Source: an uncultured Phycisphaerales bacterium (GTDB lineage Bacteria; Planctomycetota; Phycisphaerae; Tepidisphaerales; Tepidisphaeraceae). From it: a stretch of 64,000 nt of DNA. Under the pieces are notes generated by a model. That model did no database searches. It worked only from the letters and a program-made list of their open reading frames with translations, and was not told where the DNA came from. Below are positions 4,156 through 64,000 of this stretch, piece after piece. Each line of letters begins with the position of its first letter. The stretch's first letter is position 1. The DNA lies in assembly GCA_963758525.1 (NCBI GenBank), contig CAVWVQ010000003.1, forward strand, positions 4,160,001 to 4,224,000, written 5' to 3'. The translations under genes were made by a program, and so were the position numbers.

Positions 4156-4233
4156 TCACCTGAACGTACAGGCGGGTGAAGAGAAGGGGAAGGCAGGGGC
4201 AGAGGGAGAGGCATGAAGGCGCGAAATGAGTGA

Positions 4234-4385
4234 GGCACGAAGGCACGGAGGCACGGAGGCACGGAGGGGAGGACGCTGGCGCGGCGGATTTTGTCCTGCT
4301 GGGTCTACTTCCTCCTGTCTCCTGTCTCCCGCTCTCGCGCTACGCGGGCGGGAATTGCAAATTGCAAATCAAAATCGCAAATTGT
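4234..4385. repeat. Octamer (GGCACGRA)n plus heptamer (TTGCAAA)n intergenic repeat mosaic
   Basis: ggcacgaaggcacggaggcacggaggcacggaggggaggacgctg shared with 9267-9328; aattgcaaattgcaaatc. Confidence 0.7.
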
Positions 4386-4784
4386 GACTGATGGGCGACG
4401 CTCTCATGCCAAGTTGGGTCGGTTTCGCCGGACTGTAATCGTCGTGGCTTGCCCTTCGCGGAAGATCACGACGCCAGTTGCCGCAGGCATGACGACCTCC
4501 TTCAAGGATCGCCCGCCGTCCGCAAATCGGGCTGAAGAAAGTCGTTATCAGAATAACCGGCTGATCGAGTGGGCGCTGCCCTTCCCGCGGACCGGCGGCG
4601 TCCTGAAACGCCACAAATAACTTAGCGACGTGATATATTGCAGGCAAGCAGAATCATTATGAGTCGATGCGACGAGCGTGCGCAAATTTCCGGGCGAACC
4701 ATTGTGGTGCAGTCCTTGAGCCTGCGACTGCCCAGGTGCAAACACAGTTTGTTCCTTCGCGCACGGAAATTCGCGCACCTGAGG

Positions 4785-22850: not shown

Positions 22851-23030
22851 GAAGGCTCGGAAGAAGGCACGGAGGCACGAAGCGCAGAGAAGACGCGGAA
22901 GAGCGTAACGTCTTGGCATCGCCAACGGTGTCGCCGTAGTTTACCCTTCGCGGCAGCGAACCGGTTCCCCCTTTTCTTCATTTGCAGATTCGCAATTTGC
23001 AATTTGCAATCCCCGATTTGCAACATGCAA
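22851..23030. repeat. Mosaic of GGCACGRA octamers, a GTAGTTTACCCTTCGCGG motif and TTTGCAA heptamers
   Basis: Same modules as at 4234-4461. Confidence 0.65.
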
Positions 23031-27153: not shown

Positions 27154-27240
27154 TCGGAGCCGATCGCTACCACACCGGCGCCGCCTGACGCGCATGGCCC
27201 GGCTTGGAAACCGGTGCTATGAGAGGTAACGTGCGTTGGT

Positions 27241-28517
27241 ATGAAGGTATTGCTGATCGGAAATGGCGGGCGGGAGCACGCTCTGGCGTGGAAACTGGCC
27301 CAGTCGCCGCGGGTGACGGCGCTCTATGCGCTGCCGGGCAATCCCGGCACGGCACAGTTTGCCGACAACGTGCCGCTGGACGTCATGAACTTCGACAAGA
27401 TCGAGAAGTTCGTCAAGCAGAACGCGATCGGCATGGTCGTCATCGGCCCCGAAGATCCGCTGGCGGCGGGACTGGCCGATCGGATCCTGGCGATGGGCGT
27501 GAAGGTGTTTGGTCCGACCAGGGAGGGGCGCGGATCGAAGCGGACAAGTGGTTCGCGAAGGAAATCATGCGGCATCAGTCGATTCCGACTGCCGAGGCGC
27601 GTTCTTTCACTGATCCGGCAAAAGCGGAGGAATTCCTCAAAGCCCGGGATGAGCCCGTGGTCGTGAAGGCCGCCGGGCTCGCGAAGGGGAAGGGCGTTAC
27701 CGTCTGCTATCGGACTTCCGATGCGATCGAGGCCGTCAATAACGCGATCAAAAAGAAAGCGTTCGGAGACGCCGGCGCTCGCGTGGTGATCGAGGAGATG
27801 TTGCACGGGCCCGAGTGCTCGATTCTGGCTTTCGTGGACCGCCGGTCGATCTACGTGATGGAAACCGCGCAGGATCACAAACCGGTCGAGGACGGGGACA
27901 TTGGCCCGATGACTGGCGGCATGGGGGCCTACTCGCCGACGCCGGTTGTCACCGACGAAATTCTCCACCAGATCGAACGCGACATTCTCGTCCCGGCCGT
28001 CGACGGGCTCGTTCGCGAAGGAATCGACTACAAGGGCATCCTGTACGCGGGCCTGATGCTCACGCCGAACGGGCCGAAGGTGCTGGAGTTCAACTGCCGA
28101 TTCGGGGATCCGGAAACGCAGCCGCTGATGATGCGCCTGCAAAGCGACCTGCTGGAGGTAATGCTTGCCGTCGCCGACGGCAAGCTCGACCAGGTCGAAC
28201 TGAAATGGGATCCGCGCCCGGCGCTGTGCGTCGTCGCAACAGCAGGCGGCTACCCTGGCAAGTACGCGACCGGCCTGCCAATCACCGGCATCGCCGACGC
28301 CGATGCGATGCGCGACGTAAAGGTATTCCAAGCCGGCACCCGGGCGGAGGGCAACGAAATCGTAACAGACGGCGGCCGGGTGCTGAGCGTCGCCGCGCTA
28401 GGCGACACGATCGCCGACGCCAGAAATCGCGCCTACGAGGCAATCAAGAAAATTCATTTCGAAGGAATGCACTTCCGCACAGACATCGGTCATCAGGCGA
28501 TGGGCAGTGAAACGTGA
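27241..28517 (+). CDS. purD: Phosphoribosylamine-glycine ligase; frameshift ~27525 (G-run)
   Basis: GNGGREHAL, GPEDPL, VVKAAGLAKGKGV, QDHK, TGGMGAYSP, EFNCRFGDPE. Confidence 0.95.
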
Positions 28518-28524
28518 CAAAGCC

Positions 28525-28646
28525 GGTGATTGGTGATTGGAACGTGACGGGGGACAATTACTGAAAAGTCGCGAGTTGTAAAACGATCGGACGCGGGCCG
28601 GGCCCGGAACTCGGCCGCCGCACCCGCCGTGGCTTGCCCTTCGCGG
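28525..28646 (+). repeat. Two-motif ~120-nt dispersed element (GGTGATTGGTGATTGGAACGTGACG ... GTGGCTTGCCCTTCGCGG)
   Basis: Same end motifs at 60790-60918 (+) and 62434-62552 (-). Confidence 0.75.
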
Positions 28647-41481: not shown

Positions 41482-43438
<1,957 letters not shown>

Positions 43439-43442
<4 letters not shown>

Positions 43443-45133: not shown

Positions 45134-47324
45134 TTAGGATCGCAGTGTCGTTGTCAAGAAGGATATCACTGCCGTCGCGGTGTCCATCCAGTTGTTCGGA
45201 AAGAATGGACGCCCCGGACGCGGATCGGGCCAGGGCCGCGGCGCGGGGGTGGGCGGCGGGGTTGAGGTGGGAGAGATTGTGAAGTTCACGCCGTTCAGGT
45301 TTGTGTCGCCGGAGGTGATCTGGAGTGGCGAAGGAGCCGCTCCCGCCAGTTGCATGGACTTTGGCATCGATAGAACCACCTGATACATGCCGGTGGCGCT
45401 GGCACCCGGTGTGATGGCTGCGTCGGTATTGCCGCTGCTGAGTTGATTGAAGCTGTAGTTGCCCGATGCGTCGGTGGTAGTTGCGGCAAGCAGGTCACCG
45501 CTTGTGTCTTCAAGATCGACTGTCAGCCCGGGCATTCCGAGCGCCTGGGATCCGAAGCGCCACCTGGAGCGCCCGCCATCGAAACTGTTCCGCTGATGGA
45601 CGCCCTGAAATAGAAGACATCTGACTGCAGGTTGGTGACGTTGGTATTTGCCTCGATCACTTTCGCCAGCGTATTGCCCTGGAAGAAAAAGTTGGCCTCC
45701 TCGGGGGTGGAGTTTTCGTTGAGATAGAAGAAGCGGTCGCCGTCCCGCAGCCGGGTGAACTGATCGACCATGATGGCCTGGAAGAGCGGTCCGACGTCCG
45801 AGCCGCGGACATGATCCTCGGCAAGTCCGCCTTCGAAGGCGTCAATCGTGTTCACGCCGCCGGGATAGGCCGCGGCCAATTGGTTTTGAACGGCGACATT
45901 GCTGGTGATCTGGGCGAAGCTCTTGACGGGCGGCAGCTTCAGCGCCATGCGCAGGGCGTTATAGTTTGGAATCCCGTTATCCCGTCCGCGCTGAACGTCG
46001 CGGGCCATCAAGTCGTCTCCGCCGGCTCCGTTGCCGAAGAGCAGGTTGCGGACGTCGCCGATGGCCATCAGATCCATCGCCTGCGAGTCACCATCGGCGT
46101 CGCCCTTGAGGATCACTCCGATGTCGGTGGAGGTTTGACCTGTCAGAGGGTCGACGACTTTCGCGGGATTGAGAAGGTTGGGATCGAAAAAGTCCTGGGC
46201 GAGGGAGATGCTGTCGCCCGCGGGGTCGGTAATCGAGGACCCGTCATTGTTGTGACGCTCGATTCCGCCGCTGAGCAGGCTGTGACCGAAGCGAAAGGCG
46301 ACGGTGGAGAATTCGTTGGAGATCGTCGGATTGACCGACGGATTGTACCCCCTGTAGGCCGGGAGCGCGTTTCTGCCGAGAACCGCGGGAATCCATTCGT
46401 TGTAAACGATGCTCTGATACTGGGCGATATTGATCTTCCTCGCCTGCTGATACAGCGTGTCGTCAGTCCACTGCGGATGCAGCGCCTGCAGTTGCGTCGC
46501 AATCCGATTGTGGTTGCGCATGAAGAGCGTTTGCAGCGCGGTCAGTTCAATATTCTCATTGGCGCGCCGATCGCCGGCGGCAAACAGCTTGTCGGAAGTG
46601 ACCATTCCCGCGTCGTTGGCCATGTTGAGCGCGGTAAGCTGGTCAGCCGAGAAATAGGTCGAATTGTTGTACGGCAGCATGTTGCCCGGACTGGTTTTCA
46701 ACAATCCCCCCGCTCCGGTGCGCAGGGCTGCGGCTACTGTCTGCGTCGATCCGTAGACATTGGATAGATCGAGATACGAAGTCACCACGGTTGTCTGCTG
46801 CCGTGGATTGGCTTTGCTGGTTCCGGTGGCGGGATCGAATTGCGACCGCGTGAACTCGAGCGGGCCGGGACCGATTGGATCGTTGGCTGCCACAGCGATG
46901 GGAAATGACGCGCCGCCATCCAGCGTCAAATCCAGATCGTGATCCATGAACTGCCCGAAGGCATATCCGAAATCCGAGAGGCTGTTCTGATCGATGGTGG
47001 CGATGTCCGCCGACGGATTTGCCGGATCGGCCTGATTGTTCAGCAGATTGCTGATGGCGCGGCGCTCTGATCACCGGGTAGAGCGGGTGAGCTGACGCCG
47101 TCGCTGTATGCCGCAGCCGCGAGGCGGAGCAGGTCGGTGTTGGCGGTTCCCCAGCTGGGGTTTGCAATGTTATTTCCAACTTCGTCGATCGGCCGAACGC
47201 TCGTCGACATCAACAAGCGCCCCTCAAGCGTCTCGAAAACACACTTCGTCGCACCTCTTATCTTTTGCTCATGCAACCGCTTTTCTGTTAGGCGACCAGC
47301 CCGAAGCCACAAAAACATTTCCAT
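45134..47324 (-). CDS. Secreted heme peroxidase (peroxidase-cyclooxygenase superfamily) with Planctomycete extracellular motif and SdrD-B/Cna-like C-terminal domain; frameshifts ~47062 and ~45540
   Basis: ETLEGRLLMS; GQFMDHD; GDRRANEN; AFRFGHS; RGRDNG; RDGDRF; TTTDASGNYSF. Confidence 0.85.
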
Positions 47325-53142: not shown

Positions 53143-54426
53143 CTATTGCGCGAAGCGTCTTACAATGATCGAATCATTCTGCCCCCCGAAGCCGAAGCTG
53201 TTGCTGAGCGCGACATCGACTTTGGCTTTGCGGGCTTGATTGGGGACGTAATCGAGATCGCACTCGGGATCGGGGAATTGCAGGTTCATCGTCGGCGGCA
53301 GCACGTTGTCTCGGATCGCGAGGACGCAGCAGATCAATTCGACCGCGCCGGCGGCCGCGATCAAGTGGCCCATCATGCTCTTGATGCTGCTGACGGGGCA
53401 GCTCTTGGCGCGTTCGCCGAAGACGGAGCGGATGGCGATGGTTTCGTTGCCGTCGTTTTCTCGGGTGCCGGTGCCGTGGGCGTTGACGTAGTCGATATCG
53501 GCTGGAGACATCTTCGCATCGCGCAGGGCTTCCTGCATCGCGACGATCGCGCCGCGGCCCTGCGGGTCCTGATCGGTGATGCGATAGGCGTCGGCGGTTG
53601 AGCCGTAGCCGGCGACTTCAGCGAGAATAGTCGCGCCGCGGGCGGTGGCGTGGTCGAGCGTTTCGAGGATGACCATGCCGGCGCCTTCGCCGAGGACGAA
53701 GCCGGCGCGCTGCGCGTCGAACGGTCGGCTGGCGCGGGCTGGTTCGGCGTTGGCAGTCGAGAGGGCGGTGAGACGATTGAAACCGGTGACGCCGAAGGGA
53801 TGGATCATGGAATGGGCGCCGCCGCCGATCATCACCTGGGCGTCGCCGCGGCGGAGGATCGCGGTGGCTTCGCCGATGGCTTGAGTGGAGGCAGCGCAGG
53901 CGGTGAGGCAGTTCATGGCTGGGCCGCGGGCGCCGGTGAGCAGGGCGAGGTGGGAGAGGGGCATGTTGGGCTCCTGCTCCAGCTCGCGCGACACGTTCAT
54001 CAGTTCTCGCGCAGCTCGGCCCATTTGACGGTGTCGAGCGTCGCGGTCTGGGACTGCCAGGCGGCGAGATTCGCGGTGGTGAAGGCGTCGAAATCGAGCG
54101 AGCCTTCGCCGCTGCCGAGATAGATCCCCACTTCATCGAGATCGAGCGTCGCGGCATCGAGCCCGGAGTGTTTCCACGCCTGCGCAGGCAGCCAGCGCGA
54201 ATTGCGTATTGCGACCGCCTGCAGCATGCGGGCCGATGTCGTCCAGATGCTCGGTGAGCTTGAAGTTTTTCACTTCCGCCGAAATCGTCGTGGGAAACGT
54301 CGCGGCATCGAAGAGCGTTGTGCGGGCGATTCCCGATTCGCCGGCCAATAGCCGTTTCCACGTCGACTCGATGGAATGACCCATCGGTGTGATCCAGCCC
54401 ATTCCTGTGATGACGACTCTTTTCAT
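53143..54426 (-). CDS. Beta-ketoacyl-ACP synthase (FabF-like, catalytically intact); frameshifts ~54180 and ~54010
   Basis: RVVITGMG, LTACAAS (Cys), NAHGTGT, KSMMGHL, SNSFGFGGQN. Confidence 0.88.
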
Positions 54427-54435
54427 AATGAAGTC

Positions 54436-54668
54436 TTCCCCCCTCCCCTGATACTCCGGGGAAGGGCTGGGGCGGGGGTTTGGAGAAACCCGAATGACGA
54501 AACCCGAATCCCCGAATCAATTAATCAATTCCGAATGACGAAACCCGAATGACGAAACAAATGCAATCGTGGAGTCCCGCCCCGCTGATCTCATGCATTT
54601 CATTCGTTCATTCGTCATTCGGGTTTGATTATTTGATTCGGGGATTCTGGTTTCGTCATTCGGATTTC
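54436..54668. repeat. Family C palindrome followed by CGAATGACGAA inverted-repeat hairpin
   Basis: ccctcccctgatactccggggaaggg; gaaacccgaatgacgaaa ... tttcgtcattcggatttc. Confidence 0.8.
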
Positions 54669-54673
54669 ACTGC

Positions 54674-55975
54674 TCAGCTGATCATCCTTCGGAAAACCAG
54701 CGAAGCGTTCTGCCCGCCGAGGCTGTAAACGGTGCTGATCGCCACGCCGATCTTGGCCTCGCGCACTTCGGTGCTCACGTTCAGCTTTCGCTGGTCGATC
54801 ACCTTCCGCGTATTCATCGCGGCTGGAATGTTGCCGTGATGCAAAGAGAGGACAGCGGTGGCTGCGTCAACGCCGCAACCGGCGGCGAGCGAGCCGATTT
54901 GCGCCTTGATCGGCGCGAACGGAATTTTCTCAAGCCCGCCGCCAAAAACACGGTCCATCGCCGCAAGCTCGGCTCGGTCGTGAGATGCGATTCCCAAGCC
55001 ATGCGGAACAATCAGGCCCACATCTGACGCAGACACACCAGCCTCTTTGAGGCTTTTGTTGATCGCGTTGGCATAACTCTTTCCCGAAGGGTCCGGCTCG
55101 GTGATCTTGTACGTGTCCTGGCTCGCGCCGAAACCTGCCAACTCTGCGTAAATCTTCGCGCCGCGGGATTTGGCATGCTCAAATTCTTCCAGAATCAATA
55201 AGCCGCCGCCTTCGGCGACGGCGGTTCCCTCGGCGTCGGCGTCGAACGGGCGCACCGCCTCGACGGGCGAATCGTTGTGGGTTTCGTTGAGCCGATGAAG
55301 CAGCGAATGACGGATCAAACTCATCGGCAGCGCCTTGGTTTCCGCGCCGCCGCAGATCGCCAGCTCCGCGTCGCCGCGCCCAATCGTTCGGAACGCCTCG
55401 CCGATCGCGAGATGGCTGCTGGCATCGGCGCAGGTGATGGTGTTGCTCGGTCCCTTCAGCTCGTGAACGATTGTCACGTGACACGAGAGCATGTTGGGCA
55501 AATATTTCAGCAGCCAAAGGGGCGTGAGTTGTGCCATCCCGACGCCGCCCCATTTCGCGAGATCCAGCTTGTTGCCTGCACGGGCGGCGTGCATCGCGGC
55601 GGTCAGCTCGGCGAGATCGACATTGATCAGGCCCGCGCCGATGTTGCAGCCGAAACGTGTCGCGGGAATCGTGGGAGTGTCGGTGTAGGCGCGCGATTGC
55701 AGCCCGGCGTCGCGGAACGCGTCGTCGGCGGCGATCACCGCCAGCTCGATGTCGCGGGCCATCACCTTCGTTGCTTTGCGATAGCTCTTGGGAACGTAGT
55801 CGCTGATTTTGTAAGGCGGGACTTCGCCGCCAATTTGCGAGGCAAAGCCCGACGGGTCGAACGCAACGAGTTTGCGGACACCCATTTGTTTCGCGAGCAG
55901 GTTGTCCCAGAACGCGCGCGTGCCGATCCCGATGGGGGAGATGATGCCGATACCGGTGACGACGACGCGGCGCAT
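54674..55975 (-). CDS. Ketosynthase-like protein lacking catalytic residues (chain-length-factor-like)
   Basis: KS fold, but TITCADASS puts Asp at the catalytic Cys position and KAQIGSL lacks the second His. Confidence 0.8.
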   Translation of the reverse strand: MRRVVVTGIGIISPIGIGTRAFWDNLLAKQMGVRKLVAFDPSGFASQIGGEVPPYKISDYVPKSYRKATKVMARDIELAVIAADDAFRDAGLQSRAYTDTPTIPATRFGCNIGAGLINVDLAELTAAMHAARAGNKLDLAKWGGVGMAQLTPLWLLKYLPNMLSCHVTIVHELKGPSNTITCADASSHLAIGEAFRTIGRGDAELAICGGAETKALPMSLIRHSLLHRLNETHNDSPVEAVRPFDADAEGTAVAEGGGLLILEEFEHAKSRGAKIYAELAGFGASQDTYKITEPDPSGKSYANAINKSLKEAGVSASDVGLIVPHGLGIASHDRAELAAMDRVFGGGLEKIPFAPIKAQIGSLAAGCGVDAATAVLSLHHGNIPAAMNTRKVIDQRKLNVSTEVREAKIGVAISTVYSLGGQNASLVFRRMIS

Positions 55976-56010
55976 GTGCGAATGATAGAACGCGGAAGCC
56001 GGAAGTGAAA

Positions 56011-56493
56011 TCAGATACTGATCTTCCCTTCCAGGCGATACGTTCGCAGCAGTTCGGTGAACTGCTCGGTAAAGACAAAGTTATGCTCGGGAAACTCCAG
56101 TCCCGCGAGGTTCTGATCGATGTGGCTGAACATCAATTCGATATCCGCCACCGCCTCGCCGCCGCAGGTCACCTGCCCGTTGATCGACGCACCCTGCTCG
56201 GAGAGTTGCTCGATCTTCGCTGAGAAAACGATCGTTTCACCCGGCCGGACGAGGCGGTGGAACGTTGCCTTTCCGATCTTGGCGAGAATGACTTTTTCGG
56301 CGAAGTTGCGCGCTTCGCCGACCAGAATTCCCGCGGTCTGGGCCATTCCTTCCACGATCAGGCTGTGCGGAACGATCGGAAACGCGGGATACAAATCGTG
56401 CAGGTGCTCCTCGGCAAGCGTGACGTTCTTCACAGCCGTGGCGGAAACCCGCGGCGTGAACTCAACGAACTTGTCGATCCAGATCCAACGCAT
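56011..56493 (-). CDS. FabZ/FabA-like hotdog dehydratase, catalytic His apparently absent
   Basis: IDK...AVKNVT..E, HDLYPAFPIVPHSLIVEGMAQ, VRPGE. Confidence 0.8.
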   Translation of the reverse strand: MRWIWIDKFVEFTPRVSATAVKNVTLAEEHLHDLYPAFPIVPHSLIVEGMAQTAGILVGEARNFAEKVILAKIGKATFHRLVRPGETIVFSAKIEQLSEQGASINGQVTCGGEAVADIELMFSHIDQNLAGLEFPEHNFVFTEQFTELLRTYRLEGKISI

Positions 56494-56541
56494 CTCAAAC
56501 CCGAGGATGAATCCCGCCCTATGGGGAACTCGAAGCCGTTG

Positions 56542-56958
56542 CTACGCGGCAACGCCCATCTTGGCGGCCATGTAGCGGGTGATCAGGTCGACCGTCATGA
56601 GCGATGATGCTTTGTCGATCTCCGGGTCTTTCTCAAACTCTGTCAAATCGCAGTACGGCATCCGGCGTTTCAGCTCGGCAAGTCCCTCGGCGGTGACTTT
56701 GCCGTTGGTGACGAAGCGGGGGTCGTTCTGCATGGTCTGGAGGTCTTCGGGAAACAGCTCGTTCTTGGGAATCTGAAACGGCTTGGCCGGATCCGTGGTG
56801 AACGCCTTCTCCAGCCGAAACTGAATGTCGAGGTAGTCGATGCTCTCAGCCCCCAGGTCGCCGTTGAGGGTGGCGGTTGGCGTGACTTCCTCTTCATCGA
56901 CGCCCAGCGCGTCCACCAGCACTCCCTGCACCTTTTTGTACACTTCGTCGTAGGTCAT
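56542..56958 (-). CDS. Acyl carrier protein with large internal insertion
   Basis: DLGAESIDYLDI (phosphopantetheine Ser); about 138 aa. Confidence 0.88.
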   Translation of the reverse strand: MTYDEVYKKVQGVLVDALGVDEEEVTPTATLNGDLGAESIDYLDIQFRLEKAFTTDPAKPFQIPKNELFPEDLQTMQNDPRFVTNGKVTAEGLAELKRRMPYCDLTEFEKDPEIDKASSLMTVDLITRYMAAKMGVAA

Positions 56959-57033
56959 GTTCCATTCCCTTGGTAAAGCCATCTCTCATCGACACAACAA
57001 GCGCAGCACCGCCGAATCAGGGGCAAGATTCAC

Positions 57034-57094
57034 GGAGGGCGGGATTCATCCCGCCATCATTCCGCCAACCGCGGCGGGATGAATCCCGCCCTAC
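57034..57094. repeat. REPIN family A (half copy also at 56505-56522)
   Basis: ggagggcgggattcatcccgcc...ggcgggatgaatcccgccctac. Confidence 0.8.
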
Positions 57095-57120
57095 GGGAGA
57101 GTCGTTTCTCCCGCCGACCG

Positions 57121-57621
57121 CTAAGCCGCACCCAGCCCCAGCGGCGTGCTCAGCGAGCTTGGTCGAATCAGCTCCCATCGACGCTGGTTGTGCTCGCAGA
57201 GGCGCCGGTCGATTGTTGCGAGCTGGGGGTTTTTCTCTTCGAGGTTGAACAGCGCCAGCTCGAATCGCATCTGCACGGCCTGTTTCTCTCCGACCGATCC
57301 GATCGCTTTCAATGATGCGCCGGCTTCGGTGGTTTTCAGAAGCTCGACTTCCATCCGAAGGAAGTTTCCCGGCGCGACAAACGTGCCATATTTCACGTTT
57401 CTTGCTTCGCGCAGCACGCAGATGGACTTCGCGAAGCCGGTGCGGTTGTAGAGCAGCCAGCTTCCTGACTGAATCGCCGCTTCCAGCATCAACACCCCAG
57501 GCAGCACCGGAAATGTCGGAAAGTGATCGGCCAGATACTCCTCGGCCAGGCTCACGTATTTGACAGTCACGATGCGCTGATCGCTGATCTGCTCGACTTT
57601 ATCGACAAGATTGAACTTCAC
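57121..57621 (-). CDS. FabZ-like 3-hydroxyacyl-ACP dehydratase
   Basis: FNLVDKV, EYLADHFPTFPVLPGVLMLEA, FVAPG. Confidence 0.85.
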   Translation of the reverse strand: MKFNLVDKVEQISDQRIVTVKYVSLAEEYLADHFPTFPVLPGVLMLEAAIQSGSWLLYNRTGFAKSICVLREARNVKYGTFVAPGNFLRMEVELLKTTEAGASLKAIGSVGEKQAVQMRFELALFNLEEKNPQLATIDRRLCEHNQRRWELIRPSSLSTPLGLGAA

Positions 57622-58714: not shown

Positions 58715-60784
58715 ATGGAACGAAAGCCGTTGGTTCTCGGGATGCTGGCCGTCGGGCTGTTCCTGGCAGCGTGGTACGGCGTGATGCGCTATGTCGACCG
58801 CGTGCATCCGGAATATGCCGCCGAAGAAGCGGCAATGGAAGCGCAGACCCAGCATCCAACCACGGCGCCCAGCATCACGCCTCAGGCGCCCGCGCCCGCG
58901 TCGAAGTCTTTGAGCGCATCGACCATGCCGACGATGTCGGCGGCTGCCGCCGGCCTGCATTTCTCCGCGCCTCCTGCCGGCCCCGGCGTCGCGATTCTCG
59001 GTTCCGATCACGAGAAGGATCTCAACTACGCGATGCAGGTTGTGCTCTCCTCCAATGGGGCGGGCATTGCAAAGGTGACGCTCAATCAGTTTCATCAGAC
59101 GGTGCGGGGGACTGAGCTGTATTCCTTTCAGCAACCTTATGAAGACCATCCCGAAACCAGTCCGCTGGCAACTCGAAACCTCACCATCGACGGGAACACC
59201 GTCGACACCAGCGGCGGATGGAGTCTCGACCATTCCGATGCTTCTTCAGCGACTTTCAGTGAGCTTCTTGCCGTCGGAGAGAATCGTGTCGCGCGCCTGA
59301 CCAAGACGTATCACCTGCCCGATATCGCATCCAGCGCGAAGGAGAGCCAGGGATATGAGTTGCAACTGGACTACTCGATCGAAAACCTCACCGATCATGC
59401 GATTGCCGTGAAGACGGACGTGAACGGGCCGACGGTTCCGCAGAAAGAGGTCGAGCGCGGGACCGACCAGCAACTCCTGGTCGGCTACAAGAACGGCGGG
59501 GCGATCAAAGTTGCGCAGCATCCCATCGAAGAGTTCCGGAAGACTCCGTTGCAGGATCTGACTCGCAGCGGCGATACCACCGCGGCCTGGGCAGGAACGG
59601 CCAGCGTTTACTTCAACGCGCTGCTGCTCACCGAGGCTTCGCCCTCCGCGACGAAGACCGATTACGCGATCAATGCCGAGAATCTCGCCGCCGGCGACAG
59701 CACAAGCTCTTCAGTGGCGATGACGTTTCAGACCGGCGAGATCAAGCTCCCCGCTGCCGGCAAGGCGCTGCTTCCCCTCTGCGCGTTCTTCGGCCCCAAG
59801 GAACGTAAGCTCCTGGAGACTCCTTACTATTCAAGTTTTCCCCGGCAATACAACGAAACCCTGGTGATTGCCAGTGGTTTCTGCGGCGTTTGCACGTTCC
59901 CTTGGCTGATCAGCGTGCTCGTGGCCATGCTCAGCTTCTTCCATCTGATCTTCCGCGATTGGGGCATCGCCATCATCTGCCTGGTCATCATCGTGCGGGT
60001 TCTGCTGCATCCCATCACCAAGAAGTCGCAGGTTCACATGATGCGCATGGGCAAGATGGGCCCGGAGATGGAACGGCTCAAAAAGAAGTACGGCGACGAC
60101 AAAGACGCGCTGAACAAGGCGATGATGTCATTCTACAAGGAGCAGGGGATGGCCCCCGTGCTCGGGTGCCTGCCGATGTTCCTGCAGATGCCGATCTGGA
60201 TCGCGCTCTGGAGCGCGCTGCAGAGCACTTTCGAGTTGCGTCACTCGCCGTTTCTCTTCGTCCATCTGGGAAACTTCGCAATGCATTTGACGTGGATCAA
60301 GGATCTGGCCAATCCCGATGCGCTCATCCGGTTCGCTCCAATTCACATCTTTGGCTTTGACCTCGATTCTCTCAATATTCTCCCGCTGCTGCTGTCGGTT
60401 GTCTTCTATTTTCAGCAGAAGTTCACGCCAAAGCCGATCACGACCACGCCGGAGCAGGCGCAGCAGCAGAAGATGATGACCTGGATGTCGACGCTGATGT
60501 TCCCGATTTTTCTGTACAAAGGCCCGGCGGGTTTGAATCTCTACATTCTGACCAGCACCACGATCGGCATTATCGAGAGCAAGATCATCCGCGACCACAT
60601 CAAGCAGCGCGAAGAGGCGGAAAAAGCCGGCCGGGTGTTCATCGACACCAAGCCCACGCGTGCCGCGCGCCGCAAAGACGAGAAGGACGAGCCGCCAGTG
60701 AAAAAGACCGGCATCATGGCCTGGCTCGCCGATCTCCAGCAGCGCGCCGAAGACCTCCGCCGACAGGCGGATAAGGGGAAGTGA
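58715..60784 (+). CDS. yidC: Membrane protein insertase YidC
   Basis: FFGPK, WGIAII, GCLPMFLQMPIW, WIKDL, PAGLNLY. Confidence 0.93.
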   Translation: MERKPLVLGMLAVGLFLAAWYGVMRYVDRVHPEYAAEEAAMEAQTQHPTTAPSITPQAPAPASKSLSASTMPTMSAAAAGLHFSAPPAGPGVAILGSDHEKDLNYAMQVVLSSNGAGIAKVTLNQFHQTVRGTELYSFQQPYEDHPETSPLATRNLTIDGNTVDTSGGWSLDHSDASSATFSELLAVGENRVARLTKTYHLPDIASSAKESQGYELQLDYSIENLTDHAIAVKTDVNGPTVPQKEVERGTDQQLLVGYKNGGAIKVAQHPIEEFRKTPLQDLTRSGDTTAAWAGTASVYFNALLLTEASPSATKTDYAINAENLAAGDSTSSSVAMTFQTGEIKLPAAGKALLPLCAFFGPKERKLLETPYYSSFPRQYNETLVIASGFCGVCTFPWLISVLVAMLSFFHLIFRDWGIAIICLVIIVRVLLHPITKKSQVHMMRMGKMGPEMERLKKKYGDDKDALNKAMMSFYKEQGMAPVLGCLPMFLQMPIWIALWSALQSTFELRHSPFLFVHLGNFAMHLTWIKDLANPDALIRFAPIHIFGFDLDSLNILPLLLSVVFYFQQKFTPKPITTTPEQAQQQKMMTWMSTLMFPIFLYKGPAGLNLYILTSTTIGIIESKIIRDHIKQREEAEKAGRVFIDTKPTRAARRKDEKDEPPVKKTGIMAWLADLQQRAEDLRRQADKGK

Positions 60785-60789
60785 AAACT

Positions 60790-60918
60790 GGTGATTGGTG
60801 ATTGGAGCGTGACGGGAGGGAGGGAGGGACAAGGGACAAAAGGACAGAGGGACAGAGGGGAAGAGGGAATAACATGAGGGTGCTCGCGAGCGGTACGGTA
60901 GTAGCTTGCCCTTCGTGG
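60790..60918 (+). repeat. Two-motif dispersed element with (GGGACAGA)-type middle
   Basis: Inverted homologue at 62434-62552. Confidence 0.8.
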
Positions 60919-60991
60919 ACGATGCGGGTGATCGGGGGTCTGGGGCGTCGATCGCGGGATTAGCGCCTGACTCCTGACTCCTTCCCCCCAA

Positions 60992-62347
60992 ATGCTCCCC
61001 TCCGACACCATCGCCGCCCTCGCTTCTTCGGCGTTTCCAGCCCCGCGCGCGATCGTTCGTCTGTCCGGGCCGGCGACGTTTTCCGTCGCCGCGCACGTCG
61101 TTGCGGGGCTTGCTCGAGCCGCCGGCGCTTCACCCGCGCGGCTCTGCGTTCGCGGGATGCAAATCCCTGCCACGCTCTACCGGTTCATCGCGCCTCGAAG
61201 TTACAGCGGCCAGGACGTAATTGAATTTCATATCCCCGGCAATCCGCTGCTCACGCAAATGCTCCTCGAAGAACTCCTCAAGCTTGGCGCCCGCGCCGCC
61301 GAGCCGGGGGAATTCACCGCCCGAGCCTATTTCAATGGCCGGCTCGATCTCACGCAGGCCGAGGGCGTTGCTGCCGCGGTGTCCGCCCAGAGCGAGCGGG
61401 AATCCGCCGCCGCCCGGCGTCTGCTTGCGGGAGAGCTGACGCGCCGTCTGGAGCCGATCATCGATCTTGTCGCGCAGACCCTGGCTCTGCTTGAAGCGGG
61501 GATCGATTTTTCGGAGGAGGACGTCTCATTTCTTCCCGCCGAAGCGGCCCGATCGCGGATCGACTCCGCCGCCGAACAGTTACGCGGGCTGCTGGCCGAA
61601 AGCGTTCGCTTTGAACGGCTCGCGCACGAGCCCACCGTGGTCCTGGCGGGTCGTCCCAACGCGGGCAAAAGCACCCTCCTCAACGCCCTGGCCGGCAGAC
61701 ACCGGGCCGTTGTCTCACCCATCGCTGGTACGACGCGCGATGCGATCTGGACAACCGTGCGCCTGCCACGCGGCGCCGCGCGCGTCAGCGATATCGCCGG
61801 CATCGACGACGCCGATGCCGCTACTGATATCGAACGGCAGATGCGCCGCCAGGCGCTGCGGGCCATCGAGAGTGCCGACGTTCTGGTGCTCGTCGTGGAT
61901 TGCTGCGACGACCGTGCGCCCATCACCTTATCGCGAAGCGCCGATTTGCTGGTCCACACGAAGTCCGACCTTGGCCGGCAGGCCACGTCGTCCGTTCGAT
62001 GCGGCGTTGCACGGCCTCTTTCCGCGGCGGCGCCAGTTGCACTTCACGTGAGCGCGCTGACCGCGGACGGCCTCGACGCGCTACGAAGTGCGATCGATCG
62101 TGCCGCGTTTGGTGGCGTGTTTGATTCGTCGGCATCGCTGGCGCTCAACTCCCGTCACGTCGCGGCCGTTGAAGCCGCGCTAGCGGCGCTTGCCGGCGCG
62201 CGCGCGACGCTTGCGGATTCTGCTGGGGATGAACTAATCGCTCTTGAGCTCCGAGAGGCTCTTGACGCCCTCGGCTCCATTTCCGGTCAAGTCACGCCCG
62301 ACGACGTTCTCGGCAGAATCTTCAGTTCCTTCTGCATCGGAAAGTGA
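60992..62347 (+). CDS. mnmE: tRNA modification GTPase
   Basis: DTIAA, PRSYSGQDV, AEPGEFTARAY.NGRLDL, GRPNAGKS, GTTRD, terminal FCIGK. Confidence 0.93.
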   Translation: MLPSDTIAALASSAFPAPRAIVRLSGPATFSVAAHVVAGLARAAGASPARLCVRGMQIPATLYRFIAPRSYSGQDVIEFHIPGNPLLTQMLLEELLKLGARAAEPGEFTARAYFNGRLDLTQAEGVAAAVSAQSERESAAARRLLAGELTRRLEPIIDLVAQTLALLEAGIDFSEEDVSFLPAEAARSRIDSAAEQLRGLLAESVRFERLAHEPTVVLAGRPNAGKSTLLNALAGRHRAVVSPIAGTTRDAIWTTVRLPRGAARVSDIAGIDDADAATDIERQMRRQALRAIESADVLVLVVDCCDDRAPITLSRSADLLVHTKSDLGRQATSSVRCGVARPLSAAAPVALHVSALTADGLDALRSAIDRAAFGGVFDSSASLALNSRHVAAVEAALAALAGARATLADSAGDELIALELREALDALGSISGQVTPDDVLGRIFSSFCIGK

Positions 62348-62433
62348 TGCGCGAGAACCGAGGAATCGGAAGCCGCAATGGATTGAGTCGCTTGCGGTGT
62401 CGTCCCGGCACGCTGCGGTCGTTTTCTTTTGTG

Positions 62434-62552
62434 CCGCGAAGGGCAAGCCACTACCGTACTTCTCGGCGAGCAGCTCAAATCATTCCCTCCGTCCCTTTGT
62501 CCCGTTCGTCCCTCCGTCCCTCTGTCTCGTCACGTTCCAATCACCAATCACC
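62434..62552 (-). repeat. Two-motif dispersed element, inverted copy
   Basis: Reverse complement ggtgattggtgattggaacgtgacg...gtacggtagtggcttgcccttcgcgg. Confidence 0.8.
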
Positions 62553-62639
62553 TCCCTCCGATTGCACTGCCTCTGAGACTCTTGCACAGAACTGCCGGCA
62601 AAGCGATAGTGGGTCCGCTCATCAACCCAGGGAGGTTTT

Positions 62640-64000
62640 GTGGAGAAACGCATTGCATTCTGTCTGATCGCTTTGCTCCTTCCATCCAGTGCGTTTGCCC
62701 AGGCGCTGGCGGATCGCGTGCCGGCGGACGCAACGGTCTACATTGGGTGGAAGGGAACGGATGATCCGGCGCGGGGTACGCGCAGTCGCATCTCAAGGCG
62801 ATGGTCGATGCCTCCAACATCGCGCAGCTGATGCACGAAACGGTTCCGCGGATCATCGAAAAATTTGGCGGGTTCAATGAACAGATTGGCGACGCGGTGC
62901 GCCTGCTCGATACGGTGGGCGGGGCGATGTGGCGGCATCCGTCGGCAATGTTCATCGGAAAAATCGAGCTGGCCAACGGGCAGCCCGCTCCGCCGCATGT
63001 GGCAATCCTTTGTCAGGCCGGGGCCGACGCCGCGGCGCTGCAGGCCGCACTGCAGCAACAGTTGCAGAAGACTCCCTCGCCGCTGCCGGCCGAGGTTTCG
63101 CGCATTGACGATCTGGTGGTTCTGGCGATCGACTACGGCCAGGGCGAACTCGCGCTGCCCGGTGGACATGACGGCAAGTCTCTGGCGGAAACCGCGGCGT
63201 TTAAGCAAACGCTCGCTCAAGTTGGGAGCGACCCAACTTTCGCCGCGTATCTGGACGGCGAGGCGCTGGTGAAGTTCGGCGATGACTTTGCAGTGGCGTC
63301 AACCGATCCGCAGGCGAAGGAGAACTGGCCGAAGGTGCGCGACCAACTGGGTCTTGCGGGATTGAAGCAGATCGCGTTGACCAGCGGCTTTGACGGAAAA
63401 GGCTGGGGGACGCGCATTTTCGTTGGCGCGCCGGAGCCGCGCAGCGGAATGCTCGCGGCGATGGACGCCAAGCCGCTGCCTGACGCGCTGCTGGCGATCA
63501 TTCCGCAAAGCGCCACGCTCGCGGGAGCGGGCCGGCTCGATCTGGCCAGGATCGTCGAAGCGATGCGATCGGCCGCAACGGCGATCGATCCCAATGTCGG
63601 CCAGCAACTCGACGGCGCGCTGCAGATGATCTCACAAACCGTGGGCGTCGACGTTCAGAAAGAGCTGCTGCCGACGTTCGGCGGCGAATGGGTCTATTAC
63701 GTCGATCCGCTCACCGCCGGCAAGAGCACCTCCGGAATTGCCATCATCAACCATCTCCAGGACCCGGATCACGCGCAGGCGACGCTGGAGAAATTGCAGG
63801 ACGGCCTGCAGCAGATCGCCGTGCAACAGCTTCAGGGAAAACCGATCAGCATCGCTTTCCGTAAAACGAAAATCGGCAACACCGAAGTGAACTATCTGGC
63901 GGTTCCTCTGATCACTCCTTCCTGGGCGATCCAGGACGGATACCTCTGCATCGGGCTGTATCCGCAGATCGTGGCTGCCGCTGCCGAGCAAATTGCCGGG
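62640..64000 (+). CDS. Large secreted hypothetical protein, runs off window end; frameshift ~62770
   Basis: Signal peptide then ALADRVPADATVYIGWKG; a long open frame continues to the window end. Confidence 0.6.

What the first reader, a model, noticed from the sequence alone, without database searches (positions are those of the whole stretch)
60790..62552. ~120-nt two-motif element in inverted orientation on both sides of mnmE, with a third copy after purD
Three loci (28525-28646 +, 60790-60918 +, 62434-62552 -) share a 5' motif GGTGATTGGTGATTGGA(A/G)CGTGACG and a 3' motif GT(G/A)GCTTGCCCTTCG(C/T)GG at similar spacing (122, 129, 119 nt). The middle varies: GGGACAGA-like repeats in two copies, unrelated sequence in the third. 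The two + copies start within 8 nt of a stop codon. It lacks terminal inverted repeats, so it is not a classical MITE. It could be a non-autonomous mobile element, a conserved 3'-UTR RNA or a recombination site. The inverted pair could in principle make mnmE invertible.
Basis: partly seen in the sequence, partly recalled or inferred. Interest (0 to 1): 0.7.

Follow-up and report, generated by a model that had tools for sequence, protein, structure and literature searches.

The report
REP repeat fused to heptamer arms
The ~120-base pieces around mnmE are fusions of two different genome-wide repeats, one that elsewhere flanks a tyrosine-transposase gene and one that elsewhere flanks a small four-helix-bundle gene, which were likely copied as one unit and are unlikely to make mnmE flip.

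Summary
The three copies are real, at the stated coordinates. They are chimeras of two genome-wide repeat families.

Motif A (64 copies) is a heptamer arm. It brackets a four-helix-bundle (PF05635) gene here, and homologues in 8 relatives have similar arms. This scan has noted that cassette in many other genomes.

Motif B (77 copies) is a REP-like repeat. It brackets a divergent HUH tyrosine transposase (RAYT-like; fold matches 4ER8), and B-like motifs flank 23 of 30 homologous loci.

The motifs mostly occur apart and their spacing varies (74-312 nt), but the coupling is real and one-directional. 25 of 77 B copies have a purine-rich tract on their 5' side, against 5 of 355 for another REP family. 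Related copies share arm plus B, with homology ending at B.

The two mnmE arms are each other's closest relatives. However, mnmE keeps its orientation to yidC in 15 of 15 relatives, the arms share only 17 exact bases, and no recombinase was found nearby. Orientation to transcription is random and there is no Rfam match.

Verdict: a lineage-specific REP/heptamer mosaic element, a new variant of known kinds.

The parts
60790..60813 (+). Motif A: heptamer arm end (GGTGATT twice, then the AACGTGAC-type unit), 5 nt after the yidC stop
   Evidence: same arm brackets the PF05635 gene at G000:C3:86139-86755
60814..60867 (+). Octamer tract (GGGACRRA type), the arm type that flanks another PF05635 gene at G000:C3:4377228
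60881..60918 (+). Motif B: REP-like unit (conserved tail plus core at 60904-60918)
   Evidence: brackets the RAYT-like gene at G000:C5:11964-12545
60967..60982 (-). Short pyrimidine heptamer tract (CCTGACT type) just before the mnmE start; a separate arm family
   Evidence: seen directly; a related unit flanks the PF05635 gene at C5:136237
58715..60784 (+). yidC (host gene, left neighbour)
   Evidence: Pfam PF02096, PF14849
60992..62347 (+). mnmE (host gene at its conserved place after yidC; not cargo)
   Evidence: Pfam PF12631, PF10396; synteny
62386..62403 (+). Degenerate B-like partner facing the right-hand B (REP-doublet remnant, judged by eye)
   Evidence: resembles the variant listed
62434..62552 (-). 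Right composite: B core 62434-62448, octamer tract, motif A 62529-62552
28525..28646 (+). purD composite: A 28525-28548, unrelated linker, B core 28632-28646; other REP hairpins follow
4232..4461 (+). Fourth B copy (core 4447-4461) preceded by GGCACGRA and TTGCAAA tracts, no motif A
22896..22960 (+). Fifth, degenerate B copy (core 22939-22953) with a GGCACG unit upstream and an inverted TTGCAAA tract downstream

Best explanation
Each copy is a fusion of a heptamer/octamer arm of the kind that flanks four-helix-bundle genes with a single REP-like repeat (B) that flanks a RAYT-type HUH tyrosine transposase gene in this genome, and the fused arm-plus-REP piece was likely copied as one non-autonomous unit. 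Shown: the two parent contexts, the one-directional coupling, and homology between related copies that covers the arm and ends at B. Inferred: the RAYT binds B on single-stranded DNA, cuts near one side of it and at a variable distance inside or beyond the tract on the other, and the piece is re-joined in other intergenic spacers, often nearby. The two mnmE copies are likely one such local copying event that landed in inverted orientation in two spacers that tolerate insertions; they probably have no specific role for mnmE.
For: B brackets a 193-aa ORF at G000:C5:11964-12545. That ORF hits NF047646 REP-associated tyrosine transposase at E 1.8e-8, keeps invariant H109/H111 and near-invariant Y170 in a 22-sequence alignment, and its AF2 model (pLDDT 90.3) has TnpA_REP 4ER8 as top Foldseek hit, followed by IS200/IS605 transposases. 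B-like motifs lie within 250 nt of 23 of 30 homologous loci (own locus included) against 0 of 28 mnmE loci; G018, G122 and G093 carry B or a one-base variant there. A brackets a PF05635/TIGR02436 gene, and 9 of 9 homologous loci in 8 relatives have inverted heptamer arms, judged by eye. Polarity: 25 of 77 B copies have a purine tract on the 5' side against 5 of 355, 2 of 133, 2 of 41, 1 of 29, 0 of 14 and 1 of 147 for six other repeat families (Fisher p 3e-16 against the first). With hand-picked units, 35 copies have the arm only on the 5' side and 1 only on the 3' side. The 10 most similar pairs outside the RAYT locus stay alike 61-120 nt upstream of B (mean score +9.3, background -13.5) but much less downstream (-9.7, background -14.6). 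Copies within 30 kb are more alike than chance (0 of 5000 permutations), and the mnmE arms are reciprocal best matches.
Against: No activity was tested and no closely related strain shows an empty site. The RAYT-like protein scores below the NF047646 cut-off (34.4 against 80) and the PF01797 cut-off (14.5 against 23). B has no GTAG-type stable hairpin (z -0.45 to +1.48), and only 22 of 77 copies keep the predicted CCGC/GCGG stem. The three B copies at the RAYT locus have no tract. Most tracts have no B: for example 6 of 107 for the commonest unit and 1 of 98 for the next. In six relatives with B-pattern hits, coupling was seen in 2 of 14 (G111) and 0 of 13, 11, 7, 9 and 14 hits inspected; these are partial sets and many hits in G085, G111 and G084 look like chance coding matches. 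The arms upstream of B belong to at least four unit families, which needs repeated capture or tract turnover. Gene conversion between existing copies could also produce the shared segments.
Confidence: 0.6

Rival explanations
1. Two-step nesting. Heptamer/octamer arms spread by their own unknown route; B, moved by its RAYT, preferentially inserts in a fixed orientation next to the inner end of an arm. Later gene conversion makes neighbouring composites alike.
For: Four or more unrelated arm types precede B (20, 18, 8, 6, 1 and 1 of 54 copies). Most arms lack B. Nine copies have arms on both sides, including complete symmetric elements at C5:9871-10133 and C3:~36.5-36.8 kb.
Against: Insertion between two arms predicts equal 5'-only and 3'-only cases after decay; observed 35 against 1. 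Related pairs megabases apart or on other contigs share the linker and arm, with unrelated flanks.
Confidence: 0.27
2. Chance co-location: two unrelated repeat families piling up in the same tolerant spacers.
For: The yidC-mnmE spacer holds different repeats in several relatives. Other REP hairpins follow the purD copy. An inward-facing bracket around some gene is expected about 0.2 times by chance. An earlier scan note (e1-3573811) read a similar case in another genome this way.
Against: Six other repeat families in the same genome show background-level tract adjacency, while B shows 25 of 77 on one side. All 21 A-B neighbour relations have A pointing towards B.
Confidence: 0.05
3. The inverted pair is a recombination substrate that inverts mnmE (phase variation).
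For: The arms are inverted, 99 of 129 positions identical, and each other's closest relatives.
Against: The longest exact match is 17 nt. No recombinase or invertase family was found among 62 window ORFs scanned. mnmE is on the yidC strand in 15 of 15 relatives where yidC is adjacent (15 of 28 loci). A was not found in any of those genomes and B not near any of those loci.
Confidence: 0.04
4. A conserved cis-acting RNA element in 3' UTRs.
For: Many A copies start within about 20 nt of a stop codon, so many copies will be transcribed. REPs can affect mRNA fate (Introduction of PMC8266576, in general terms).
Against: B orientation is independent of transcription (17, 18, 18, 16). A was found in 2 of 61 genomes. 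No Rfam match. No significant fold.
Confidence: 0.04

Closest known systems
REP/REPtron systems with RAYT (TnpA_REP), especially the class 3 TnpAY1 'atypical' REPs of Planctomycetes and Acidobacteria (Quentin et al. 2018, PMC6006769)
   Same: Intergenic ~20-45 nt repeat in tens of copies that flanks a HUH-Y1 gene. NHVH motif and an N-terminal extension before the Y1 core. The reverse complement of B (CCGCGAAGGGCAAG...) resembles the class 3 REPs of Table S1 (CCGC basal stem, internal loop, 2-bp upper stem), judged by eye.
   Different: The Y motif is YxxxNP (class 2 signature), not YxxxxQ. No CnGA or GTAG foot is conserved. The hairpin is weak. No class 3 row of Table S1 is B itself. B is fused to tandem-repeat arms.
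REPINs / BIMEs (Bertels and Rainey 2011, PMC3116915)
   Same: Composite intergenic units of about 70-130 nt built around REPs, non-autonomous, forming mosaics with other repeats.
   Different: REPINs are inverted REP doublets, and singlets are considered immobile remnants. Here 67 of 77 B copies have no B-like partner within 200 nt, yet show signs of recent copying together with a heptamer arm.
Heptamer/octamer-armed four-helix-bundle (PF05635 23S_rRNA_IVP / TIGR02436) cassettes, and unexplained intergenic heptamer repeats such as TAACTGA (MacGregor 2015, PMC4679880)
   Same: Motif A and the octamer tract are such arms: purine strand pointing inward from the edge of the spacer, inverted pairs around the gene or empty.
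   Different: Here single arms are capped by a REP instead of a mirror arm. The arm-gene link is documented in this scan's unchecked notes; my three paper searches for it found no description.
MITEs
   Same: Short, non-coding, multi-copy, lineage-specific.
   Different: No terminal inverted repeats within a unit and no target-site duplication in 16 units inspected by eye.

Membership tests
REP with cognate RAYT (REPtron) | Repeat flanks a HUH-Y1 tyrosine transposase gene | tested here: met
   B at C5:11932 and 12556 around the ORF; HUH and Tyr conserved; fold matches 4ER8; 23 of 30 homologous loci against 0 of 28 controls
REP with cognate RAYT (REPtron) | Protein passes the curated RAYT or Y1_Tnp profile cut-off | tested here: not met
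   NF047646 34.4 bits against 80; PF01797 14.5 against 23; a divergent member by fold and motifs
REP with cognate RAYT (REPtron) | Many extragenic copies genome-wide | tested here: met
   77 copies, 69 outside genes called by my own crude model
Canonical GTAG REP | GT(A/G)G foot followed by a stable palindrome | tested here: not met
   GTGG/GTAG occurs at the start of the core, but the fold is no better than shuffles
Class 3 TnpAY1 REPtron (PMC6006769) | NHVH motif, extended N-terminus, YxxxxQ signature, CnGA-footed atypical hairpin | tested here: inconclusive
   NHVH and extension present; Y motif is YVLDNP; hairpin topology kept in 22 of 77 copies; no conserved foot; the class 3 profile itself was not available
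REP with cognate RAYT (REPtron) | RAYT binds and cleaves the repeat as single-stranded DNA | not testable with these tools
   needs an in vitro assay
REPIN | Mostly inverted REP doublets at fixed spacing | tested here: not met
   10 of 77 copies have a B-like partner within 200 nt, 2 of them inward-facing on the 3' side (the pattern misses degenerate partners such as 62386-62403)
Heptamer-armed four-helix-bundle cassette | Unit occurs as inverted 7/8-nt arms around a PF05635 gene | tested here: met
   A around C3:86359-86685; octamer around C3:4377228; 9 of 9 homologous loci
Heptamer-armed four-helix-bundle cassette | The arms at this locus enclose a PF05635 gene or an empty spacer | tested here: not met
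   they enclose mnmE, a host gene at its conserved position
MITE | Terminal inverted repeats and target-site duplication | tested here: not met
Invertible (phase-variable) segment | Both orientations present in reads | tested here: inconclusive
   two public runs cover only scattered pieces, none across a junction
Invertible (phase-variable) segment | Site-specific recombinase nearby and near-identical inverted sites | tested here: not met
   none among 62 window ORFs scanned; 17-nt longest exact match; a distant recombinase was not searched for
Rfam RNA family | Match above a gathering score | tested here: not met
   0 in the window; two E~1 chance hits

The most novel reading that the evidence does not exclude
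A divergent planctomycete RAYT uses a single REP as a one-ended origin and carries heptamer/octamer arms with it. That would make a HUH transposase a mobiliser of the unexplained bacterial heptamer repeats and link two repeat systems (REP/RAYT and four-helix-bundle cassettes) so far treated as unrelated.
Probability: 0.15. Interest if true: 0.72.

Novelty: new variant of a known kind. Interest (0 to 1): 0.38.

Why it matters
How REPs spread is unresolved (PMC8266576), REP singlets are held to be dead remnants (PMC3116915), and no mechanism is evident for intergenic heptamer repeats (PMC4679880). This genome offers a named enzyme, a cognate repeat, a sharp boundary on one side and dozens of natural products, so one-ended copying can be tested in vitro. 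It also defines a RAYT clade that Pfam and NCBIfam cut-offs miss, with its REP. For mnmE itself the finding is probably incidental.

Tried and rejected
Rfam, gathering and E-value modes: nothing. PDB sequence search with the RAYT-like ORF: nothing useful; the fold search was needed. Sequencing runs: two low-share DNA runs, no RNA holder listed; their contigs did not bridge any junction, so inversion and expression are untested. Replichore bias: none on a local GC-skew proxy (B 34 of 77, A 47 of 89). Target-site duplications: none in 16 units, by eye. Promoter/terminator scan of 60700-62700: background level. Exact-match scan of genome contigs for B: 45 single hits; the 11 inspected were mostly chance-like. 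RAYT tree: flank-motif labels cluster (7 changes against a shuffled mean of 12.2, 0 of 200), but the B-type label needs 3 changes, so strict co-evolution is not shown; labels were set by eye, 8 of 32 rows were unlabelled, and 1 short row was dropped. GxxExxY and DUF559 genes were checked as partners: their flanks carry other repeats. The 23 PF01797 hits do not include the B-flanked gene. Paper searches without a description of the arm-gene cassette; I ran no paper search aimed at the REP-arm fusion itself, and the library lacks most subscription papers. One search failed on a frame error and was repeated.

Full report
OBSERVATION. The three loci are present exactly as reported, next to yidC, mnmE and purD. 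The window is G000:C3:4160001-4224000. I call the 5' motif A and the 3' motif B.

BOTH MOTIFS ARE GENOME-WIDE AND MOSTLY SEPARATE. A has 64 copies at <=2 mismatches (89 with a shorter pattern). B has 66 at <=1 mismatch and 77 by HMM at E<0.05, with a weaker conserved tail about 25 nt upstream of the core. Only 21 of 89 A hits have a B within 400 nt, and 18 of 77 B copies have an A. The 17 same-direction units measure 74-312 nt. By my own crude gene calls, 85 of 89 A and 69 of 77 B are intergenic. B is indifferent to transcription direction (17/18/18/16), and A usually sits at the spacer edge pointing inward. A was found in 1 of 60 relatives. B has 20 or more pattern hits in 3 of 140 family members, and only G018's were confirmed as intergenic repeats.

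WHAT A IS. The genome has 8 PF05635 four-helix-bundle matches, most flanked by inverted 7/8-nt tracts. One, at C3:86359-86685, is bracketed by A itself; another is bracketed by the octamer that fills the two mnmE copies. All 9 homologous loci of the first gene, in 8 of 200 class-level genomes, have inverted heptamer arms of related type, judged by eye. About 620 period-7/8 tracts lie outside called genes. I had this reading before consulting the scan's notes; they report the same cassette in at least 88 genomes (unchecked).

WHAT B IS. Two inward-facing B copies bracket a 193-aa ORF at C5:11964-12545, with a third copy upstream. The ORF hits NF047646 (REP-associated tyrosine transposase) at E 1.8e-8 but below the cut-off, and PF01797 only at E 0.04. 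H109, H111 and Y170 are conserved across 22 homologues. The AF2 model (pLDDT 90.3) matches E. coli TnpA_REP 4ER8 first, then IS200/IS605 transposases. Related proteins occur in 61 of 140 family genomes. Of the 30 best loci, 23 (own included) carry a B-like motif within 250 nt, against 0 of 28 mnmE loci; G018, G122 and G093 carry B or a one-base variant, in varying orientation. Kin are not independent, and the tree shows clustering of motif types but not a single B clade. B is not a stable hairpin. Its reverse complement resembles the atypical class 3 REPs in Table S1 of PMC6006769, but the protein's Y motif is of class 2 type.

THE FUSION IS REAL AND POLAR. In an unbiased tract catalogue, 25 of 77 B copies have a purine-rich tract on their 5' side. 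Six other repeat families score 5 of 355, 2 of 133, 2 of 41, 1 of 29, 0 of 14 and 1 of 147 (p 3e-16). With unit patterns chosen after seeing the data, 44 of 77 have an arm on the 5' side; 35 have it only there and 1 only on the 3' side. At least four arm families take part. Related copies, some megabases apart, share linker and arm, in several cases from the first base of A to the last base of B, with unrelated flanks. 67 of 77 copies lack a second B-like motif within 200 nt, unlike REPIN doublets (PMC3116915). Against generality: most tracts have no B, the B copies at the RAYT locus have no tract, and partial sets from six relatives show little or no coupling.

THE mnmE PAIR. The two arms are reciprocal best matches among the 77 copies (99.7th percentile; 99 of 129 positions identical; longest exact match 17 nt), while the purD copy is unrelated in its middle. 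Copies within 30 kb are generally more alike (0 of 5000 permutations). One gene bracketed by inward-facing copies is expected about 0.2 times by chance. Of 28 relatives' mnmE loci, 15 have yidC within 1.5 kb upstream, all on the same strand, with spacers of 0-420 nt: 8 are 57 nt or shorter and several longer ones hold other repeats. One of the 15 is G004, flagged unpublished. No B-like motif lies near any of the 28. No recombinase family was found in 62 window ORFs. Public reads were too thin to test inversion.

MECHANISM. Shown: parent contexts, polarity, shared boundaries, local kinship. From the literature: E. coli TnpA_REP recognises single-stranded REP on one strand and cuts at CT dinucleotides 5' or 3' of it, and the dissemination route is unknown (PMC8266576). 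Inferred: this RAYT excises or copies a piece that runs from B's boundary through a variable stretch including the tract, and inserts it in tolerant spacers (0.6). Main rival: oriented insertion of B beside existing arms plus gene conversion (0.27). Chance co-location, inversion and RNA element are each 0.05 or less.

NOVELTY. Both components are known kinds. Di Nocera 2013 (PMC3733652) notes that a few REP families sit regularly inside other palindromes, so REP-plus-other-repeat composites have precedent. A polar fusion of REP singlets to four-helix-bundle-type arms did not appear in the passages I read; I ran no search aimed at that fusion, and the library is incomplete. One scan note (e1-3573811) called a similar composite in another genome coincidence; here coincidence fails the controls. 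The lineage is planctomycete by an earlier scan note, which I did not test.

PAPERS SEEN. PMC6006769: passages, plus Table S1 parts 1 and 7 and a term search of it; its first supplementary file (figures) was not read and may bear on the class assignment. PMC8266576: abstract, Introduction, Discussion. PMC3733652, PMC3116915, PMC4679880: passages. Others: search listings only.

Noticed in passing
window 27241-27666 and 27204-28517: purD is split by a frameshift: GARS_N is in one frame, GARS_A/C in another. acs (41482-43442) is also in two pieces. Several PF05635 and Y1 genes elsewhere look frameshifted too, which suggests assembly indels.
   Followed up: partly
G000:C3:86359-86685 (L082): The four-helix-bundle gene bracketed by motif A appears frameshifted after about residue 91. 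It sits between a lysS-like gene and a conserved downstream gene, a slot filled by homologues with different heptamer arms in at least 4 relatives' loci.
   Followed up: partly
G000, e.g. C3:305758, C1:316102, C3:4614154, C3:2876085: About 12-14 PF01797 genes in two near-identical groups are bounded by long terminal inverted repeats instead of REPs (TIRYT-like) and look recently multiplied.
   Followed up: no
G000 genome-wide: At least six further REP-like families (355, 147, 133, 41, 29 and 14 copies); several match the flanks of particular Y1 or DUF559 genes by eye. GxxExxY genes have 8-9-nt tract arms.
   Followed up: partly
G018 (L051-L080), contig C2 222-321 kb: The B variant in G018 occurs in long same-strand runs (10 consecutive + copies) in C-rich context, often followed by a second variant in direct orientation; possible strand or replication bias.
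   Followed up: no
L003, L004, L007, L008, L013, L019: The yidC-mnmE spacer has been filled by different repeat families in different relatives, suggesting an insertion-tolerant hot spot.
   Followed up: yes
window 45134-47210: Animal haem peroxidase-family gene (PF03098) with SdrD-like fragments, apparently in pieces.
   Followed up: no
window 53143-57621: Cluster of two ketosynthases, two FabA-like dehydratases and an acyl carrier protein.
   Followed up: no
window 62640-62865: The DUF3352 gene after mnmE seems frameshifted near its start; its homologue also follows mnmE in G010.
   Followed up: partly
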